Part shown: positions 2,827-56,525 of the stretch, in pieces | Position numbering within the stretch: the stretch's first letter is position 1 | Layout: each line of letters starts with the position of its first letter | Source: Cetorhinus maximus | Lineage: Eukaryota | Assembly: GCF_964194155.1 (NCBI RefSeq) | Contig: NC_135897.1 | Span: 74,834,001-74,898,000, forward strand | DNA: 64,000 bases | Direction of reading: 5' to 3' | Translations under genes and position numbers: made by a program | The notes under the pieces: model-generated | Databases searched by the model: none | What the model saw: only the letters and a program-made list of their open reading frames with translations | Told to the model about the DNA's origin: nothing

Positions 2827-3182
2827 GTACTGCATTAATTTATTAACTCTCTCAACTATATTTTTGAACAAATATGCCTAGCTTATGGGATTCTGGCAAG
2901 TAAATGGAGGAACACAATTGGCAGGGCCTGGATATAGGATGTTTGTCGTCTTTTGGCTGAGAATGGTACGTAATGAAAGAAAGGAAGGGAGATAAAATAA
3001 TTCACTAAGCATTACCCTTCCTATCCCTTCCCACCATAAAGGAAAATCTTCTAGGCACGTAAATACAATACACTCCAGTATGCTTACACTCCTATAACGT
3101 AATTATTTTTCAAATTACATTGAACAGGACTACATGGGCTGCTTCTCTTTAAATATGATATTTGTTTCTGTCTTGCTGTCAG

Positions 3183-3314
3183 ATAATTAAACTCAACCGT
3201 CGACTCCAGCTCCTGGAGGAAGAAAACAGAGAGCGCACGCGTCGAGAAATCTTTATTTACTCAATCACAGTGGGGTTCTGGTTGATCAATAGCTGGCTTT
3301 GGTTCCGGCGCTGA
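3183..3314 (+). CDS. MFF: Mitochondrial fission factor, last coding exon (coiled coil plus C-terminal tail anchor)
   Basis: AG at 3181-3182. Translates IIKLNRRLQLLEEENRERTRREIFIYSITVGFWLINSWLWFRR*, the hallmark MFF C-terminus; TGA at 3312-3314. Confidence 0.97.
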   Translation: MIKLNRRLQLLEEENRERTRREIFIYSITVGFWLINSWLWFRR

Positions 3315-4257: not shown

Positions 4258-4300
4258 TCAGTTAACGTTTCGAGTCCTCATGACCTTTCGGCAGAACTGA
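4258..4300 (-). ncRNA. Minimal hammerhead motif, antisense arm copy
   Basis: Reverse complement reads TCAGTT-CTGCCGA-AAGGTC-ATGAG-GACTC-GAAA-CGTT-AACTGA. Confidence 0.65.
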
Positions 4301-4472
4301 GTATAGTTAGGAGAAAGGTGAAATATAAGCTGGTCTAAGGTGGGGGGGCGGGGGGGAGAGAGAAGTTGAGGGTGGGGTGATTCACCCCACAATCACCCCA
4401 CCCTCAACTTCTCTCTTCCCCCCGCCCCCCCACCTTAGACCAGCTTATATTTCACCTTTCTCCTAACTATAC

Positions 4473-4515
4473 TCAGTTCTGCCGAAGGGTAATGAGGACT
4501 CGAAACGTTAACTGA
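4473..4515 (+). ncRNA. Minimal type I hammerhead ribozyme motif (Penelope-type, core CUGCCGA)
   Basis: TCAGTT-CTGCCGA-A-GGGT(AATGAGG)ACTC-GAAA-CGTT-AACTGA: stem I TCAGTT/AACTGA, stem II, GAAA, palindromic ACGT stem III, predicted GUU cleavage triplet ending at 4509. Confidence 0.7.
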
Positions 4516-8200: not shown

Positions 8201-9950
8201 TAAAAACAGAAAATACTCGACAGGGCTGGCAGCAAATGTGGAGAGGGAAACTGAGTTAACATTTTGAGTCAAATATGACTTCTTCAGAACAGAAGGAGAG
8301 AAATGTGATGAACTATATGGTGTTAAAAGGGGGGAGTGGGGGGGAAGAACAAAAGGGAAGTTCTGGGATAGGGCAGAGGGCGGTAGAGATTAAGTGACAA
8401 AGGTGTCATGTAACAAAAGACAAAGGGAGTGGTAATGGTTGTAGTAAAGAGATAAAGCATTGGTCCAGAGTGAGTGTAAATGCTCAAATAATGTCAAAAA
8501 GCAAATACAAGATTTAAACCAGCACATGACGAAAAAAAAGAGTTCATGGTCTGAAGCCCAACATTGAGTCCAGAAGGCTGTCAAGTGCCTAATCAGAAGG
8601 TGAGGAGCTGTTCCTCGAACTTGCGTTGAGCTTCACTGGAACATTGCAGCAGGCCGAGGACAGAAATATGAGCATGAAAACAAGGTGGTGAACTAAGCAA
8701 CCGGAAGCTCAGAGTCATGTTTGCGGACTGAGTGGCGGTTTTCTGCAAAGAGGTCACCCGATCTGTTTTTCATCTCCCCAGTGATGAGAAGATGGTGTCG
8801 TGAGCAATGGATGCAGTACACTAGATTGGAAGAAGTATAATTAATTCACTGCTTCACCTGGAAGGAGTGTTTGGGGCCATGGATAGTGAGGAGAGAGGTG
8901 GTAAAAGGGCAAGTTTTACACCTGCAATTGCATGGGAAGGGGACAAGTTGTTGGGGGTAATTAACGAGTGGGCCAGGGTGTCAGGGAGGGAATGGTCCCT
9001 TTGGAATGCTGACAGGGGAAGGGAACATGTTTGGTGGTGGCATCATGCTGGAGGTGGCGGAATTGGCAGAAGATGATCTTTCGAATTTGGAAGCTGGTGT
9101 GGTTGAAAGTGAGGATAAGGGGTACCTTATCGTCGTTCTGGGAGGGAAGGGGTGAGAGTGGAAGTGCAGGAACTGGGTCAGACACAGCCGAGGGCCCTGT
9201 CAACCACAGCGGGGGCAGGGGAGGGGGAATCCTTGGTTAAGCAAAAAGGAAAACATATCAGAAGCATTGTTGTGGAAGGCTGCTTAATCAGAACAGATGC
9301 AACAGAATCAGAGAAACTGGGAGAATAGAATGGAGTCCTTACAGGAGTTAGGGTATGAGGAAGTGTAGTCAAGGTACCTGTGGGACTCGATGGGCTTATA
9401 ATGAATATTAGTATAGACAAACTATCCCCTGAAATAGAGACAGAGAAGTTGAGGAAGGGAAGAGAAATATTGGAGATGAACATATGAAGGTGAGAGAAGG
9501 GTGGAAATTGGAAGCAAAGTTGATTAATTTTTCCAGTTCCAGGCAAGAGTAGGAATCAGCAACGATGTAGTCATCACTGTACTGAAAAAGGAGTTGGGGG
9601 AGGGGGGCCTGAGCAGAACTAAAACAAGGAATGTTCCACATACCCCACAAAAAGACAGGCATAACTAGGATCCATGCAAGTATACATAGCAACACCTTTT
9701 ATTTGGAAGAAGTGAGACAAGTTAAATGAAAAATTATTCCTTGAGAGAACAGGTTCAACCAGGAGGGTGGTAATGGTGGGGACTAGTTGGAGCTCTTTTG
9801 AAGGAAGAACAGAGAGCCCTCAGACCACCCTGGTGGGGGATGGAGGTGCAGAGAGTTGGATGTCCAAAGCGAAGTAGAGGCAGTTTGGACCAGGAAACTG
9901 GAAATTGTTGAAATGACGTAGGGTGCCAGAAGAGTCACAGATGTAGGTGA
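8201..9950 (-). mobile_element. Older degenerate Penelope-like element (RT plus GIY-YIG remnants and terminus)
   Basis: Frameshifted ORFs homologous to 36894-38075 (VPLILTFNHTSFQIRKIIFCQFRHLQHDATTKH; LFQYSDDY); terminal repeat with a decayed hammerhead at 8251-8290. Confidence 0.88.
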
Positions 9951-9959
9951 GAAGAGAGC

Positions 9960-17470: not shown

Positions 17471-18088
17471 TAGAGCAAAGTAGTTACAGTTACAATATGC
17501 TGTCAATAGTTTAAAATCATATATGAGATTCTGTAATCAAGATCTTAATCTATTATACAGATTTGTGCAAATCTCCTAGGACTAAGAATGCTAAACTGCT
17601 GTATCATATTCTGTACTCGTAATTCTGTGATTGTCCTATTAAGCTGTCAACGTCACTGAGTAAGGGGATATCAGATGGGTCTTTGAAACTTGGCTGTGTC
17701 ATAATTATCTGGGTGAGCATCAGTGGCCCCCAATGCAACCAATTGATATATTGACGTATTGTGCCATGGAGCGATAAGATGTGATTGTCATGACAAAATC
17801 CTGATTTGTTTGAGGGTGTGTGAGTATCATATAGTGGCGAGTGATTTCTCACAGAAGGGGAAGGAAAATTGGGCGTTGAGACGCCTGGGTTGTCACATTC
17901 ATCTAGCAGTCAGTACAGAGTGGTATTGCCAAGAGTCTTGAGACTGAGTCCTAGATGTGGTGCAGAAGTACAGTATTTTAAATTAATATATGCTTTTAAT
18001 AAAAGCATCAAATATGGTTGATCTGTGATAGAGAACAACAATCGCTGTTTCTGTGAGCTGAATTTAAAATATTTTGTTGCATTGTCAG

Positions 18089-18557
18089 ATCACAGCAGCC
18101 AAACTGGAACTATCATGCTGAAGTAGAGGCCTTTGGTCAACGTCTTCATGAGAATTTCAACCTGGACCTTCTCAAAACAGCGTTCATCAATCCCTGTTAT
18201 ATTACGTTTGAGGAAGCACGCCGCCGGGAACTTAGACTGGAAAGAGAGGAGATCACATTAAATCTCAAAGACAATCAGCAGTTATTTGAGAAAGGCTCAC
18301 TGTTTTCAGATACTTACCTCCAAAACTGTTTTAGTAATGCCTATCCAAACTTACCTGCCGACGGTGTTAAGGCATTTACTACTCACATCACAAGGTCAGA
18401 GAATGTGTGCCATGTTGCCAGAAACTTAGCTGTGGAAGACTTGACACTAAGTGCAGAGTTCCCAGTGCCACAGGAGGTTTTACAAAAGACATTCTTTGCT
18501 GTTGTTGGAGCTTTGCTTGAGAGCAGTGGACCTGAAAGAGCCAGCTTATTTATCCGG
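18089..18557 (+). CDS. MRPL44: MRPL44 exon 2 (RNase III-like domain)
   Basis: AG/GT bounded, 469 nt; [34 protein letters not shown]...[21 protein letters not shown]...[12 protein letters not shown]. Confidence 0.97.
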
Positions 18558-20217
18558 GTAAGATACTGGGGCAATAATGGTGGGGAGTGGACTACATTGC
18601 ACATGTAAATAATAATAAGAGACTACACTGGGTACAGTGATAGTTGCCCAAAGTTCAAGCAGATTTACAGGTTGTATGAGCAGTAACAACAACTTGCATT
18701 CATACAATTCATGTAGAGCCTCACAGAAGTATAATCAAGAAAAAATGAATGACAAGATTGGCAGCCTTGAGCAGTCACAGATTTAAGGTCATCAATAATA
18801 GAACCAGAGGGGAGATGAGATTTTTAAAAAGTTGTTATGATCTGGAATGCATTGCCTGAAAGGGAGGCAAAAGCAGTTTTAATAGTTCCTTTCAAAAGGA
18901 AATTAGATGTATACTTGAAAAGGAAAACATTTGTAGAGCTATGGGAAAAGAGCAAGGAAATGAGACAAATTGAACAGTACTTTCAAAGAGACAGCACTGT
19001 TATGATGGGCTGAATGGCCTTGTTCTGTGCTTGATAATTCTGACACCCAGACAATGAAATATTAGGAGAGTTAACAAAAAACATGGTCACAAGAGGTGGC
19101 ATTTAAAGGAAGAGCTGGAGCTAATGAGGAAAGGGATTTCTGTCAGGAATTCTATAGCGCTTGGGGCTCTAGTTATAGAGTCAGGCTGTACAAAAAGTGA
19201 AGGTACCAAGTAGACTTACAAACAAAATACCCAGTGGTGTATTATGTGATTGGTAGGCACATTTGATTGAAGATGCTGGGACCACTGAGGAATGTGTGTT
19301 TTAATGAAGCATTAATATACAAAACCAAGGAGCGAGGACAGTAGAACTTAGCATGTTTGAAATTTACCAAGAATTTTTCTATTTTAGTTGAACTTCTTGC
19401 TTCCCAATTTTTAGCTTATATCTTTTGGGAAATATTTGTGATTAGTGAGGAGCGATGTCAGTGATGGACTGTTTTTTATACTTCTGTTAGCCAGCATCAA
19501 AGTTGTACAGCAAACCCAGGCACAGAGTAAAACTCTATATTTTGCTTTAAACCCAAACTCTAATACTTCCTATGTTTTTTTTAATTAATTCATGGGACAT
19601 TGGCACTATATTGTACATAGTTATTACAGTATAGCTGGACAGTAAATGCGCAGTGCTTTTTTCTTCAATGCTAAGAATTTGTGATGTAAATTCCGAGTCT
19701 GGGCCTGACTTTGTCCTGGATTCATAGCCTGATTGCAGAGCAAAGCTGCCTCGCACTGGCACTGCAGTTGTATATATGTAGGCTCAATTAACCAGCTAAA
19801 ACCCTGTAGTTTATCAGCACAGGGACAGTTAAATTTCCTGGTGCTTGTCCAACTAAGATCATCCTATACATTAGGGCTTTGGCTTTCATTTATATAGCTG
19901 AATAGGAAGAATTCCAGTCTAACTTTGGGTTGTTCCTGTTGTGTCTTGACTCAGTGTGCTGCTGCAGTTGTGTATGATTTGACCTGACACTGGATGTAAT
20001 ACCTGTTCTGTGAAACAGTGGATGCTTCTTTTGACTTGTTATATTATAAGCATGGCTTTACATGCTGATTCTTTTGTTCTGTGTGACTAGTGATTCAAAT
20101 GATTTGCAAATGTGTAACAGCCTATTAACAGCAACTGGACTATTTGCTTCTGCCTTTACTTTTGAATAGAGTATCTGACTCTCAAATGTATTTTCTGATT
20201 TATTGGTCTTTTTATAG

Positions 20218-30964: not shown

Positions 30965-31416
30965 CTGTATCAAACGGGAGCCGAAACAAGTATTCAGAAA
31001 TAACTACTCTGGAGGTAGGAATCTGTAGAACAGACTATCTTAAAAATATTCAACAGGAATAAACAGATGTGCGATTGAACTGAAACTGCACAGAAATGCT
31101 CTGGCATTGTGGGCAAACGTAAGTTTTAAAAACCCCAAATGAGTGTGGAGATGATTGAATTTTCCGTTTTTCATTTGTCTACAATTTTAGCCACATAATA
31201 ACACGGGAGAAGTATTCCAATGTAATTATGCTGAAGATTAAATTTAAAACAGTCTCTGGCTAAATGTTGCTTTCGAAGATAGCTAAGGGCACAAAATACT
31301 AAATATGTCCTTCTGCTTGTATCTTCCAGTGAATCAAACGAAACAGAATCAGAGTTCTTACAACATTGTTGCCTCATGCCTTAAGAACCTCGTGCGGATG
31401 GACCCACAGGAAGACA

Positions 31417-31604
31417 AATAAAAACAGAATATGCTGGAAATACTCAACAGGTCAGGCAGCATCAGCAGTGGAGAGAGAAACGGTTAATTCTCTTGAAAGG
31501 TCATCGGTCTCTGTTTCTCTCCCCGAAGTTGCCTGACCTGCTGAGTATTTCCAGCGTTTTCTGTTTTTATTTCAGATTTCCAGCCTCCACAGTGTTTTGC
31601 TTTT
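31417..31604. mobile_element. Penelope-terminus fold-back element in TM4SF20 intron 1
   Basis: Inverted arms AATAAAAACAGAA..GCTGGAAATACTCA..CAGGTCAGGCA / TGCCTGACCTGCTGAGTATTTCCAGC..CTGTTTTTATT. TSD CCACAGGAAGACA (31404-31416) / CCACGGGAAGACA (31605-31617). Confidence 0.8.
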
Positions 31605-35000: not shown

Positions 35001-36489
35001 TGTGAACATTTAGTTCATGGTTCATGTGTTTTGGAATATACCTTTTAGTTTTAGAATATAATTTTAGTTTTAGGAATTAAAGTTTTTTTGTAGAAAATGG
35101 GACAAATGCAATTAAAATCAGAACAGAAGAGATGGAGCTATAAAATAGTAGATGGGCTTACGTAGCTAGAGAACTGGAGACGTAATGTTTACACTGCTTG
35201 CAAAGACATGGAGCCCAGAGAGATGGTTTTGCTTTGGGAACTGGAGCTAAATTAGTTTAAAGCATTTGGTGAATATTTGATTAACAGGGGGCACTGATGG
35301 TAAAATTCTCTGCTTAAACTAAAAGCCTCTATGTATAATCATCCCTATTAGACTACACAAAAAAATTTAAGTGGCAGCAACTGGTGCACTGAAAGGTTCT
35401 AAAACCCATTTAATTCACCAGGTCAAAAAAATTGTAAATGAAGGATAGTTAACTCAAAGGTCGGTTGGAGGATAGCCCTGAGCAGGCTATGTCATCATGA
35501 AGGTGGGTAGAGCTTAGGAAGGTTCTCTGGTTTCAACTTACCTGGGTGTTAGCTGAGAGAGTTTGTAGTTAAGGTTGATGTGTCTTTTAAGAGAATTCTT
35601 AGGGGAAGTAGGAAGTAAACATGAGTCCATAACATGCATAGTTATAAACCCTAATGTTAAGTTAATAGTGCTTGTTTTGTTTAAGTCTTTTATATACAAT
35701 AACATTTGTTTTGTTTAAAAAAAATCAAATATTGTGACATAGCTTTATTGGTTAAAATTAGGTATTTTGATTTATTTTTAAATGTTAACAGCCCTTAACC
35801 ACATTGTAACAATGAGCATAGCCTGGCACTTAAACAAGACATTGTGGTATGTTCCCCAAGTGGACATTCTGCATTTGTAAATTTAGTGACTGATAGATCA
35901 CGTGATAATGATGATCAGGAGACCACAGCTGAACCTGATCCCACCAATATCCACATTTAAGTGCTTTCCACCAGGTCCTCTTTGATTAAGAATAATCAAA
36001 TTGTATATTGCACATTTCATCCATCTTATAATTAACAAATAAAAAAATTAAACTAAATAAAACATGAAACATAGAATCTACTACAAGGAACAAGTCCTTC
36101 GGCTTTCTCAATGCAGTATTTTGTACTAGCAGTACACATTGACAGCTAGAATACACCAGGTCCTTTCTGATTAAGAATGGGAACTGCTGATTTTCTTCCT
36201 CCTCCCTGTCTTTGCTGATGCCAATTTATGTGTCACATTACAGCTAATTTTGAACAAGGATCGTAAATTTGATTTGAATATATGTGAGTCTAGACTGTAA
36301 CTGCCTCAGTTATCATTTTATAACTGTGCATGTATGGTGTAGGCATGCAGGAACCACTAAGTGTTGACTTATTTCTAGATATTCCCTTCTTTCATGAGAT
36401 GACATGACAGAGTGAACCCCTATTCTAAAACAAAAACAGAATTACCTGGAAAAACTCAGCAAGTCTGGCAGCATCGGCGGAGAAGAAAT

Positions 36490-36530
36490 CAGTTAACGTT
36501 TCGAGCCTTCATGGCCCTTCGGCAGAACTG
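36490..36530 (-). ncRNA. Minimal type I hammerhead motif in the Penelope 3' terminus
   Basis: CAGTT-CTGCCGA-A-GGGCC-ATGAA-GGCTC-GAAA-CGTT-AACTG: 5-bp stem I, 5-bp stem II, palindromic ACGT. Confidence 0.75.
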
Positions 36531-36893
36531 CAGCATAGTTTCAACAAGGGAGAAATATAAATTGGTTTAAGGTGGGTGGGGGTGGGGGGGGGGGGGGGGA
36601 AGAGACACATTGAGGGTGTGGTGTGAGCAGATAATCAAAAGATGTCACAGACAAAAGGATCAAAGAGGTGTTGAAGGTGGTGGTCTTTGTCTGAGAAAAG
36701 TGCTAATTAAGAATGGAAAACAGGATATTCAAAGTACAGCTCTAGTGGGGGTGGGGTGGAAAGACTAAAGGTTTTAGTTTTAGATTTAAAAATAATGGAA
36801 ATAGGTGGGGAAAGAAGAATCTATATAAATTATTGAAAAAAAAAGCGGGTGGGGGGGGAAAAGAAACGGGGTGGGGATGGGGGGAGGGGGAGT

Positions 36894-38075: not shown

Positions 38076-40439
38076 ACCTTTTATTTGGAGGAAGTGAGAG
38101 GAGTTAAAGGAGAAATTGTTCAGTGTGAGAACAAGTTCAGCCAGACGGAGGAGAGTAGTGGTGGATGGGGATTGTTGGGGCCTCTGTTCAATTCTATTGC
38201 TCTGCTCAGGGTGTCAGGTTTTTGTGCAGACAACATAAAAAACAGAGCTCCCCATTCTTTACAGTCAAAGCTGAATCTAACTGTGTAAAAATGCTGAAGT
38301 TCCAGCAAGTGGCAAGGAACACCCTGATTGTCATGCAGGTATATTCTAGCTGTCAATGTGTACTGCTAGTACATAATACTGCATTAAGAAAGCTGAAGGA
38401 TTTGTTTTTGTAGCAGATCCTATGTTTCATTTTTTAATTTAGTTTAAATTTTTTATTTGTTAATTATAAGATGGATGAAATGTGCAATATGCTTATTGAT
38501 GTCTCTCTAAATTGTTGGTTTCCTTTAGCCTCCAAGGGTCTTTTGTGTCTCCTAACTAACTCAGTAGGCTGTTGCTGGTTCTTGTCAGCCCTGAACTTCT
38601 TTTGGCTTATTTTCTTAGCTGACTTGTTTAGGTGTCAGAATTATCACAGAGACTATGATGAAAGTATAATAACGTTCATGATATTTTTCTGGTTTATTGT
38701 GAAGTAGGTTAATGGGGGCAAGTATAGTTGGGTCTGTCTGTTTGACTTAATTACATTTGGAGCCAAGTAGACTGCAAGCTTGAATTCATCAAAAGAAGCT
38801 AGGTGCTTGATGTGCTAATGAGTAAACATGGATGCTGGCTTAACATATAAAGTGCGAAGGGAATTTGCATTTTTAGATAAATAAAGGGATTTGGATTTCA
38901 AAGGGATTTTAGTCTGTTTACAACTAACCAGAAAACCTAGGCTAAGCAGTGTGTTTATTTTCCTCAAAGGTTACTGACCATATTAACAACATGAAAGTTT
39001 TTATATTATGAGGAAGAGACAGTTTGAAAGACACATGGAACAATAGAATTTACATATTAAAAAGAGAGAAACATATATAAAGGAGAATGAAAGGCTATGT
39101 GGAAGAAGGCCATGTAAGAGCAAATAGGAGTGTGCAAAATAGCTTAATGAAGCCTCTAGCCATTTATGCATAAGTCTGCTACACAACAAAATTGAAATTG
39201 GAGAAAAGCCATTTGGAATTCCACTGTCAAGTGGGTATTGTGTTAACTTGCTAGCTGTTTTAAATCTAAAATCTGTTTTGGACTGTTGCCTTAAAGGGGG
39301 TGTAACTGGGGGTCAGGTTAATTAGGAATTTCAGGAGTTATTACAGTAGTAAGTAATTGTAGTATTATGTATGGACTTGAAATCTTTTATTTTGTTAATA
39401 AATATTTTAATTTAATTTTTAAAATCTCTAAATGTCTTGGTGGACTTATTACTTCTGATTTCAGTGCACATATCTTCTCGTAATAAATACAAATTGCAAA
39501 ACTGTTGTGATAGCGCGACCAAGTTTCCTTTCTGGATTTGGTCTGCCTGGCACACATCATTTACTACATCATAATAAAGACAAATGTGCCATTCTAGGGT
39601 AAATATATTTCAGCCTGAAGGGTATAATGCCCCTGAATTTTGTCTGATGTTACAGCTCATCATTTTGCCACTACTTAAATTTTTTTGTGTAGTCTAATAG
39701 GGATGATTATATGTACAGAATTTTAGTTTAAGCAGGTAATTTTATCATCAGGGCCCCCTGCTAATAAAGTATTAACAAAATTATATCATTAATTCAAACT
39801 CTTGTTTGATTTTTTGGGCTTTTTTTGGTTTTTTTAATGGTACAAAGATTACAAAGATGAGGGAGGCCATTTGGCTCATGTAGCTCACCTTTTTATAGAA
39901 ACACGCAGTATTTTGTTCATAGTGCCTCTTGAATTATTTCAGTGTATTTGTCTCTGCTACCCTTCTTAGAAAACCATTCCAGTGTTAATATTTGCTGTGT
40001 ATTTGAATCCTGTGAATAATGGCAGGTAAATTGCTGGCACCAAATAATAACAAGCCATATTGCCAATGCTGGGTGAATAATGACTGAGTTAATTACCATC
40101 TAGTCATGTTGCACATGTCCATTATCCAAATCTCAGTCAACAAATAAGGGAAACTAATACATTAGCATTCTGAGAAGTCTGTGTGAATGTTAGATTATTA
40201 GGACCCAGCTAACTGTGACCATACAGCCAAATTATACTGTGCTGTAGGAGTCCATTCAGATAATGGACCTATACTGGCTTTCTAAAATAGCTATTTACTT
40301 ATTCCTAATCGCTACCATTTATCCATAGTGTTTAAAGTATTCCCCTTTCTAACATTCACTTTTAAAAGTTATTAAGTATGCTGTATCCACCATCTTCCTG
40401 CTCGGGTATTCCACCTACTACCAGTCATATGTGTTCTTG

Positions 40440-55949: not shown

Positions 55950-56525
55950 AGGTAACAGCATAAATCCTCAGAAGCAGCGGGTCAGCATCTTTGGAGACAG
56001 AAACCCGAATTAGCATTTCAAATCTGTGATCATTCATCAGAACTGGAAAGAGATGTAACAGGTTTAAGCAAACACAGAGGCAGGGAGGGAGGTGGTGGGA
56101 GGGGGAAAATAACCAAAGGGAAAGCCTGAGATAGGGTGAAAGACAGGAGTGATTAAATGGCAAAAGTGGGTGGTATTGGGACAAAATAAAACAAAAAATG
56201 GGACCAGATCTTGGTCTTTTGTTTCTTTTCTTGCCCCATTGCCATTCCCTTTTTGCCTTGCACCATCATCTCTTTCGTCATTTAATCAGTCTTGTCTTCC
56301 ACCCAATCCCAGACCTTCCTTTTTGTTCTTAGCTTCCTCGCCCCCTTTCCCTGCCTCTATAGCTGTTTAAAACCTGTTGCATCTCTAACTTTTCTTGTTC
56401 TGATGAAAGGCCACAGACCTGAAAAGTTAACTCTGTTTCTCCCTCCATAGATGCTGCCTGACTTGCTGAGTACTTTGAGCATCTTCTGTTATTTCAGATT
56501 TCCAGCGTTCATAGTATTTTGCTTT
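55950..56525. mobile_element. Penelope-derived fold-back element with hammerhead-like cores on both arms
   Basis: Imperfect inverted arms around ~56210. Minus-strand CTGATGA..GAAA at 56006-56046; plus-strand CTGATGA-AAGGCC-ACAG-ACCT-GAAA at 56400-56424. Confidence 0.75.

What the first reader, a model, noticed from the sequence alone, without database searches (positions are those of the whole stretch)
36490..36530. Minimal dimer-type hammerhead ribozyme with a non-canonical CUGCCGA core in the young Penelope subfamily
Seen: CAGUU-CUGCCGA-A-GGGCC(AUGAA)GGCUC-GAAA-CGUU-AACUG, with intact stems I and II and a stem III reduced to the palindrome ACGU. The same A6-to-C change occurs in both MFF-UTR arms, so it is a subfamily trait rather than decay. 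Older copies have canonical CUGAnGA. Known: Penelope-like elements carry minimal type I hammerheads thought to cleave as dimers, and A6 is a highly conserved core base. Inferred: the recently mobile lineage either tolerates a variant core or has attenuated or lost cleavage.
Basis: partly seen in the sequence, partly recalled or inferred. Interest (0 to 1): 0.7.

Follow-up and report, generated by a model that had tools for sequence, protein, structure and literature searches.

The report
Active retroelement hammerhead lacking core A6
A recently mobile jumping-gene family in this large animal genome (probably a shark) carries a small hammerhead-type RNA motif whose normally fixed core letter A6 reads U or C in about 60,000 genomic matches; the change likely slows self-cutting without having stopped the element from spreading, but cutting itself is untested.

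Summary
A minimal type I hammerhead with core CUGCCGA (C at position 6) lies at 36530-36490 (minus strand), in the 3' pseudo-LTR of a 5'-truncated Penelope-like element. It is a lineage trait: 7,214 genomic matches carry C6 against 8 with A6 on the same background. The lineage apparently went A6 to U6 to C6. Among intact-core matches, 22,118 are A6, 36,445 are U/G6 (92 of the first 100 listed are U) and 23,572 are C6. C6 elements include full-length tandem copies with open 924-codon frames, 99.3-99.6% identical, under purifying selection. The other core bases stay fixed and stem changes keep pairing, but this support for retained catalysis is only moderate. No genomic footprint of cleavage was found in A6 or C6 copies. 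Best reading: an attenuated ribozyme whose full-rate cleavage is not needed for transposition. A6C is known from one phage hammerhead (slow, prefers Mn2+). I found no report of it in Penelope elements, but one key paper was unavailable. The scan noted this C6 family before on another piece of this genome (e1-9834341). Verdict: new variant of a known kind.

The parts
36490..36530 (-). Minimal type I hammerhead motif with C at core position 6
   Evidence: Sequence; pair counts across 25 distinct family variants: 97.3% of 300 cells paired, against 11-45% for slid controls
36526..36530 (-). Stem I, 5' strand (CAGUU); its A (36529) is the inferred transcription start in an initiator-like YYAGTT
   Evidence: 5' ends of copies pile up within 3 nt of this point: C6 12 against 18 in the next 32 nt, U6 7 against 4. 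Start-site reading and initiator consensus are inference and recall
36519..36525 (-). Core 5' half C3 U4 G5 C6 C7 G8 A9; the variant base C6 is at 36522
   Evidence: genome counts
36503..36517 (-). Stem II (5 bp) with 5-nt loop, preceded by one extra A at 36518
   Evidence: Fourth pair is U-A in 16, C-G in 7, U.G in 1 and unpaired in 1 of 25 variants
36495..36502 (-). Core 3' half G12 A13 A14, palindrome ACGU (A15.1-C-G-U16.1) and U17; predicted cut after 36495
   Evidence: position 17 alternates only between U and C in 25 of 25 copies not chosen by core pattern
36490..36494 (-). Stem I, 3' strand (AACUG)
   Evidence: the youngest subfamilies have a U.G pair at the first position
36553..36559 (-). 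TATA-like box 30 nt upstream of the inferred start
   Evidence: Motif kept in all nine subfamily majorities while 13 of 24 spacer columns vary; promoter function is inferred
36427..36489 (-). Conserved tail behind the hammerhead, ending in a T-rich tract at the 3' end of the insertion
   Evidence: by analogy the region where reverse transcription starts (PMC11167929)
36427..36893 (-). 3' untranslated region / pseudo-LTR of the element
   Evidence: Repeated at both ends of full-length tandem copies L119 and L120
36894..38191 (-). 5'-truncated, stop-free reading frame: end of reverse transcriptase, C-X4-C-xx-C linker, GIY-YIG endonuclease
   Evidence: GIY-YIG E = 1.9e-4, just under Pfam's cutoff; insertion 98.0% identical to intact L119 over 1,766 nt; full frames match RVT_1 and GIY-YIG
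38191..38195 (-). Possible 5-nt target-site duplication (AGAAT), partner at 36422-36426
   Evidence: Junction sequences; short, may be chance
4259..4299 (-). Second C6 hammerhead, left arm of an inverted short insertion of an older C6 subfamily
4474..4514 (+). Third C6 hammerhead, right arm of the same insertion, same strand as the upstream Mff exon; one stem II mismatch

Best explanation
This is the minimal hammerhead in the pseudo-LTR of a recently mobile, autonomous Penelope-like retrotransposon, and it is likely an attenuated ribozyme that would cut slowly after GUU, probably only as a dimer or with help from the element's protein. Shown: the motif, its place in the element, its fixation in C6 subfamilies with intact reading frames, and pairing-preserving stem changes. 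Inferred: the source lineage went A6 to U6 to C6; transcription starts at the 5' strand of stem I, so a fast cut in the upstream repeat would remove the cap and about 35 nt from the element's own RNA; uncut RNA is the main template for copying, so losing A6 cost little or helped, while weak selection kept the rest of the core. This particular copy is a truncated insertion without an upstream partner and is probably inert.
For: C6 7,214 against A6 8 on one background. A6 22,118, U/G6 36,445, C6 23,572 intact-core matches. Tree of the reading-frame 3' end from 36 copies, hammerhead excluded: A6 and U6 copies basal, U6-GUC plus C6 one clade (SH-aLRT 100), three natural A6/C7 copies nested inside C6; C6-GUC is intermediate in sequence. 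Open frames of 920-924 codons in L119, L120, L122, L123, 99.3-99.6% identical; pN/pS 0.00-0.28 between subfamily majorities. In 25 copies not chosen by a core pattern, C3, U4, G5, G8, A9, A13 and U16.1 were 25 of 25, while position 6 was U 11, C 9, A 5. Across subfamilies 0 of 13 other core columns vary against 30 of 105 flank columns (Fisher p = 0.017). Position 7 varies freely and 17 stays U or C, as a working hammerhead allows (recalled NUH rule). A6C lowers but does not abolish activity in a natural phage hammerhead (under 0.1 per min, PMC3088659; PMC7151607). In the anole element, core mutants do not affect insertion in vitro, uncut RNA is the main template and cleavage needs the protein (PMC11167929).
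Against: No cleavage was measured. 5' junctions at the predicted cut are not clearly enriched in C6 copies (77 against 55 at a control position), and A6 copies show no stronger signal. Core constraint is weak evidence: p = 0.074 if position 6 is counted; at the synonymous divergence of 0.13-0.17, zero changes in 13 sites has probability about 0.11-0.18 (hand calculation). Subfamily sets were gathered mostly with core-bearing patterns, which favours invariance. Only one pair shows a change on both sides. A pairwise mutational scan of a type III hammerhead found low activity and no rescue for changes in the CUGA turn other than the C3-G8 swap (PMC9901934). U6 forms are predicted to prefer a rod in which the two core halves pair (-10.2 against -7.8 kcal/mol). 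A6C cut about five orders of magnitude slower than wild type at 0.3 mM Mg2+ in one engineered case (3.55e-6 against 0.3 per min), which could mean no activity in cells.
Confidence: 0.5

Rival explanations
1. The ribozyme has been catalytically dead since the U6 stage; the hairpin and sequence are kept for another job at the 5' end of the transcript (promoter or start-site sequence, protein binding, RNA packaging) or have simply not yet drifted.
For: Two successive non-A bases became fixed at one catalytically important site. U6 forms favour core-core mispairing. No cut-site footprint. The motif overlaps the inferred start site and the tail behind it is also well conserved (11 of 62 columns vary). 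Hammerhead mutants do not impair insertion in vitro; Naiad elements proliferate without canonical hammerheads (PMC8557442).
Against: Every other catalytic position, the C3-G8 pair and the ACGU palindrome stay fixed; position 17 moved only between allowed bases; inner stem changes between subfamily majorities keep pairing. A purely structural role would not obviously spare single-stranded G5, G8, G12, A13 while freeing 6 and 7.
Confidence: 0.32
2. C6 (and U6) are fully functional in this context: dimer geometry, the element's protein, or a metal such as Mn2+ makes up for the lost A6 contact, giving a conditional rather than a crippled ribozyme.
For: C6 hammerheads cut well in Mn2+ (0.3 per min at 1 mM for the phage motif). 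The anole motif is protein-assisted. C6 removes most of the mispairing predicted for U6 and for A6/C7 (expected core-core pairs 1.4 against 3.7-3.9).
Against: No second core change accompanies U6 or C6. Double-mutant scanning found no rescue within two changes (a different hammerhead type). The authors of PMC7151607 note that cellular Mg2+ far exceeds Mn2+.
Confidence: 0.14
3. C6 is post-insertion decay or an assembly artefact in a few copies.
For: None found.
Against: 23,572 C6 matches on many contigs; 8 A6 matches on the matched background; C6 in both repeats of intact tandem elements.
Confidence: 0.01

Closest known systems
Minimal hammerheads (min-HHR) in pseudo-LTRs of metazoan Penelope-like elements (Cervera and de la Pena 2014, PMC4209133; read: introduction, results, discussion, start of methods; two supplementary files searched, one not searchable, figures not seen)
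   Same: Type I layout, 5-bp stem I, extra base between A9 and G10.1, G10.1-C11.1 pair, palindromic 15.2-16.2, no helix III, one copy per pseudo-LTR, most copies dispersed and truncated.
   Different: The only core variant described in the text I read is U3-A8. Here position 6 is U or C in most intact-core matches, and the youngest autonomous subfamilies sampled all carry C6.
Bacteriophage Bcep176 A6C hammerhead (Perreault 2011, PMC3088659, passages read; Naghdi 2020, PMC7151607, results, discussion and methods read)
   Same: Same core substitution, A6C.
   Different: A single phage intergenic motif shown to cut slowly and to prefer Mn2+. This one is a minimal dimer-type motif fixed in over 20,000 matches of a vertebrate retrotransposon, apparently reached through U6; activity untested.
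Poseidon element PAc of the green anole (Frangieh 2024, PMC11167929; main text read)
   Same: Tandem pseudo-LTR layout, hammerhead followed by a short tail, copies spanning the cut site.
   Different: PAc's hammerhead was shown to cut with protein help and overlaps the start codon. Here the first ATG lies about 150 nt behind the hammerhead and the protein has the Neptune/Nematis-type cysteine linker.
Small hammerhead variants of Penelope-like retrotransposons that cleave as dimers (Lunse, Weinberg, Breaker 2017; not held; known only from its title and citing reviews)
   Same: Reduced stem III, association with Penelope-like elements, dimer cleavage model.
   Different: Could not check whether that survey lists position-6 variants; this limits the novelty claim.

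Membership tests
Minimal type I hammerhead of Penelope-like elements | Stem I closing the motif and stem II with G10.1-C11.1 | tested here: met
   97.3% of cells paired; one pair changed on both sides
Minimal type I hammerhead of Penelope-like elements | No helix III; palindromic A15.1-N-N-U16.1 | tested here: met
   ACGU in all nine subfamily majorities
Minimal type I hammerhead of Penelope-like elements | Core consensus C3 U4 G5 A6 N7 G8 A9 | tested here: not met
   C at position 6; the other six positions met
Minimal type I hammerhead of Penelope-like elements | G12 A13 A14 A15.1, U16.1 and H17 | tested here: met
   GAAA-CGU-U; position 17 is U or C in 25 of 25 copies
Minimal type I hammerhead of Penelope-like elements | One copy in each pseudo-LTR of tandem elements | tested here: met
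   L119 and L120: two same-strand motifs 3,291 nt apart around an open frame; the window copy has only the 3' one
Minimal type I hammerhead of Penelope-like elements | Self-cleavage as a dimer | not testable with these tools
   Indirect junction test gave no signal; only assembled contigs were offered, no raw RNA reads
Canonical hammerhead families in Rfam (Hammerhead_1 and relatives) | Covariance-model match | tested here: not met
   No hammerhead hit at E <= 5 for the window or E <= 10 for 141 nt; also none for a natural A6 copy
Endonuclease-positive Penelope-like element | Single frame with reverse transcriptase and C-terminal GIY-YIG | tested here: met
   Four full frames match RVT_1 (2 of 4 above Pfam's cutoff) and GIY-YIG (E about 5e-4, just under cutoff)
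Endonuclease-positive Penelope-like element | Partial tandems forming pseudo-LTRs, inverted 5'-truncated partner, one-sided tail | tested here: met
   layout as described in PMC8557442
Neptune / Nematis clades of Penelope-like elements | CX2-5CxxC linker between RT and endonuclease | tested here: met
   CPRRRCNTC in the L119 protein; definition from PMC8557442
Neptune / Nematis clades of Penelope-like elements | Placement in an RT phylogeny with reference elements | not tested
   No reference set fetched
Non-LTR retrozyme | Non-coding tandem units of a few hundred nt, each with a hammerhead | tested here: not met
   The unit is 3,291 nt and codes for RT-EN; definition from bioRxiv 10.64898/2026.07.22.740005 (introduction and methods read)
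Mn2+-preferring C6 hammerheads (Bcep176 type) | C at position 6 | tested here: met
Mn2+-preferring C6 hammerheads (Bcep176 type) | Cleavage favoured by Mn2+ over Mg2+ | not testable with these tools
   Needs a bench assay

The most novel reading that the evidence does not exclude
A vertebrate retrotransposon lineage has run for tens of millions of generations on a hammerhead without A6, moving A to U to C, and the motif still cuts, but conditionally (element protein, dimer or Mn2+ dependent), acting as a timed switch at the capped 5' end of the element's RNA. Such motifs are invisible to the standard CUGAnGA descriptor, so position-6 variants may be a large uncounted class of genomic hammerheads.
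Probability: 0.2. Interest if true: 0.75.

Novelty: new variant of a known kind. Interest (0 to 1): 0.52.

Why it matters
The role of hammerheads in Penelope-like elements is described as unknown in the papers read. This genome holds a dated natural series (A6, U6, C6) in one lineage that kept transposing with intact, purifying-selected reading frames. Assaying the series would test directly whether cleavage matters for these elements: dead motifs would show it is dispensable in vivo; live ones would show how a supposedly fixed core base can be replaced. Published descriptors require CUGAnGA, so about 60,000 matches here would be missed by them.

Tried and rejected
1) Rfam scans: no hammerhead hit; microRNA-family hits at 4270-4500 only reflect the inverted repeat. 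2) DNA similarity search of the own genome returned nothing because common words are skipped; patterns were used instead. 3) Cut-site footprint: copies whose 5' end falls at the predicted cut. C6: 77 against 55 eight bases upstream; of the first 30 inspected, 20 abut an inverted partner and 10 abut other sequence, and several use stem I complementarity as microhomology. Old A6 family: 118 against 22 and 35 at two control positions, but 16 of 30 inspected, and 12 of the 22 controls, were scored as internal deletions rather than junctions. The exclusion letters differ between patterns, so counts are not strictly comparable. No contrast between A6 and C6; uninformative. A wider junction pattern (903 matches, 100 listed, read by eye) showed at most a weak excess at the cut. 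4) Public runs: only contigs were offered. Two lays show family sequence in four coded organisms but did not list letters at position 6, so sharing of U6 or C6 across species is only hinted. 5) Folding z-scores of single motifs are unremarkable, and the designed active dimer is 5-11 kcal/mol above the dimer minimum for all six variants tried, A6 included; this does not separate active from inactive forms. 6) Splice-acceptor reading of the AG before the core (branch-point-like and pyrimidine-rich upstream sequence) was considered and not excluded; the start-site reading is preferred because short copies show no shared upstream exon. 7) Literature: 8 searches found no report of A6U or A6C in Penelope hammerheads or of shark Penelope hammerheads; Lunse 2017 was not held; one supplementary file and all figures of PMC4209133 were not seen and may bear on this.

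Full report
Observation. The variant base C6 is 36522. Two more C6 motifs form the arms of one inverted insertion at about 4260-4515, 0.9 kb behind an Mff coding exon. Older window copies with a readable core have A6. Rfam finds no hammerhead here or in a natural A6 copy.

Context. The motif sits in the 3' pseudo-LTR of a 5'-truncated element at 38191-36427 with a stop-free frame ending in a GIY-YIG domain. The window lies in a 3.99-Gb assembly; 'shark' is my inference from recall and from earlier AI notes, not from a call. Fetched neighbours of C6 matches include full-length tandem copies: L119 and L120 have two same-strand C6 motifs 3,291 nt apart around a 924-codon stop-free frame. L119's frame is 99.3-99.6% identical to those in L120, L122, L123 and L125. 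Four such frames match RVT_1 and GIY-YIG, and the L119 protein has the C-X4-C-xx-C linker that marks Neptune/Nematis elements. These loci were chosen for promising spacing, so they show that intact copies exist, not how many.

Genome counts. A tight C6 pattern has 7,214 matches (control 0); the same pattern with A6 has 8. Three of these A6 copies could be placed in the tree and fall inside the C6 clade, as back-mutations would. With loose patterns (TCTG-x-NGA, 14-21 nt, GAAACGT-Y): A6 18,962 + 3,156 = 22,118 (controls 454), C6 16,052 + 7,520 = 23,572 (controls 41), G or U at 6 36,445 (control 451), with U in 92 of the first 100 listed. Non-A6 is 60,017 of 82,135 (73%). Exact patterns undercount old, decayed A6 copies and count both arms of inverted pairs, so this is a share of intact-core matches only. 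In 600 kb fetched without regard to content, 40 tails were found; those with a readable, in-register core included 3 C6, 9 U6 and about 10 A6 (read by eye).

History. A tree of the last 940 nt of the frame (35 of 64 aligned copies had at least 400 nt, plus the window copy; hammerhead excluded) has A6/A7 at the chosen root, then intermingled A6/U7 and U6 copies, then a clade of U6-GUC plus C6 (SH-aLRT 100) and a C6 clade (86). Only 2 of 33 inner branches are strongly supported, and A6/U7 and U6 are not resolved, so U6 may have arisen or reverted more than once. Subfamily majorities from 222 of 239 copies form a stepwise series in which C6-GUC shares its 3' side with U6-GUC and its upstream side with later C6. 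End branches are 0.024-0.028 for U6-GUU, 0.012-0.014 for the oldest C6 and 0.002 for the window copy. At the epaulette-shark rate of 7e-10 per site per generation (PMC10587355, passages read) the U6 stage would be some 35 million generations old; this is a rough inference with a borrowed rate. Between subfamily majorities pN/pS is 0.00-0.28 over 169-256 codons, so the source elements stayed under selection after losing A6.

Is the fold still selected? Across nine subfamilies the changes fall at positions 6, 7 and 17, the loop, and stem positions where inner pairing is kept (A-U to G.U, U-A to C-G, U-A to U.G); the terminal stem I pair is sometimes broken. On 25 distinct variants 97.3% of cells pair, slid controls give 11-45%, but only one pair has a change on both sides. 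In 25 in-register copies (of 35 with upstream sequence) from loci not chosen by a core pattern, C3, U4, G5, G8, A9, A13 and U16.1 never vary; G12, 15.2 and 16.2 show mostly CpG-type decay. Zero of 13 other core columns vary against 30 of 105 flank columns (p = 0.017; p = 0.074 counting position 6). Against synonymous divergence the invariance is not significant (about 0.11-0.18, hand calculation). The evidence for continued selection on catalysis is therefore moderate.

Where the RNA starts and what gets copied. 5' ends of copies pile up within 3 nt of the stem I 5' strand: C6 12 against 18 in the next 32 nt (p = 0.004), U6 7 against 4 (p = 0.001), A6 29 against 3 (junction-chosen loci left out; the A6 figure may be inflated by families whose upstream sequence was missing from the panel). 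A TATA-like box lies 30 nt upstream in all subfamilies. I infer that transcription starts there, which puts the hammerhead at the 5' end of the element's RNA; a splice-acceptor reading is not excluded. Copies routinely span the cut site, and tandem copies extend past the upstream motif, so templates were uncut or re-joined. A search for copies beginning at the cut gave no clear excess and no A6/C6 contrast.

Folding. U6 forms prefer a rod in which the core halves pair (-10.2 against -7.8 kcal/mol); the window's C6 form is close to balance (-10.9 against -10.7); natural A6/C7 copies misfold (-13.4 against -10.7). Two sampled A6/A7 copies show no core mispairing, and 1 of 3 A6/U7 copies does. 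These are nearest-neighbour predictions only, but they mean a C6A revertant is an unsafe control.

Mechanism. The most likely reading (0.5) is an attenuated ribozyme. A6C gives low but detectable activity in the phage Bcep176 motif and a Mn2+ preference; CUGA-turn mutants are generally weak; Penelope minimal hammerheads are slow even with A6; and in the anole element cleavage needs the protein and is dispensable for insertion in vitro. A lineage could thus lose A6 at little cost, perhaps gaining by sparing its capped RNA. A dead relic kept for start-site or structural reasons (0.32) and full compensation (0.14) remain open.

Novelty. The motif class and its host element are known, and A6C is known from one phage. 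Eight literature searches found no position-6 variant in Penelope elements, but Lunse 2017 could not be read and figures and one supplement of PMC4209133 were not seen. The scan had already noted the C6 family on another piece of this genome (e1-9834341); I saw that note after my own counts and it is not independent evidence. Verdict: new variant of a known kind, interest 0.52.

Noticed in passing
window 35264-35380 with 39665-39781, and 36005-36157 with 38338-38490: The Penelope insertion sits near the centre of an older, interrupted inverted repeat: two flank pieces match in reverse orientation (117 nt at 85%, 154 nt at 92%). Origin not worked out.
   Followed up: partly
window 4474-4514 (+), behind the Mff exon at 3159-3314: One C6 hammerhead lies in sense orientation about 1.2 kb behind the last Mff coding exon; if inside the mRNA, an active ribozyme could cut it.
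   Followed up: partly
window 18057-18608 (+): Exon matching the endonuclease-like domain of mitochondrial ribosomal protein mL44 (E = 1e-40).
   Followed up: no
window 8559-9957: An older Penelope-like frame remnant, 74-75% identical to the C6 element.
   Followed up: no
genome-wide, e.g. L172:1501-1532, L084: About 8 in 100 of the G/U matches have G at position 6, several on one background (CUGGUGA); may be a further subfamily or decay of A6/U6 copies.
   Followed up: no
L261, L264, L269, L270, L272, L278, L283: Old A6 copies repeatedly lack 6 nt between the two AAC repeats around the cut site, a recurrent deletion that removes the palindrome.
   Followed up: partly
L201, L205, L212, L220, L226: Inverted-pair junctions recur exactly where one arm's stem I 5' strand meets the other's stem I 3' strand, suggesting template switching guided by stem I complementarity.
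   Followed up: partly
window 36446-36443 (minus strand) and U6/C6 subfamilies: A splice-donor-like CAG|GTA appears in the tail from the A6/U7-U6 stage onward and is absent from the oldest A6 family; a gained intron in the 5' leader is possible.
   Followed up: no
L122:6001-1766 (-): A 1,412-codon stop-free frame where an inverted copy reads on from the antisense of its partner; probably a by-product of the inverted arrangement.
   Followed up: no
window 55983-56456 and 31416-31572: Older inverted-pair insertions of A6-type families.
   Followed up: no
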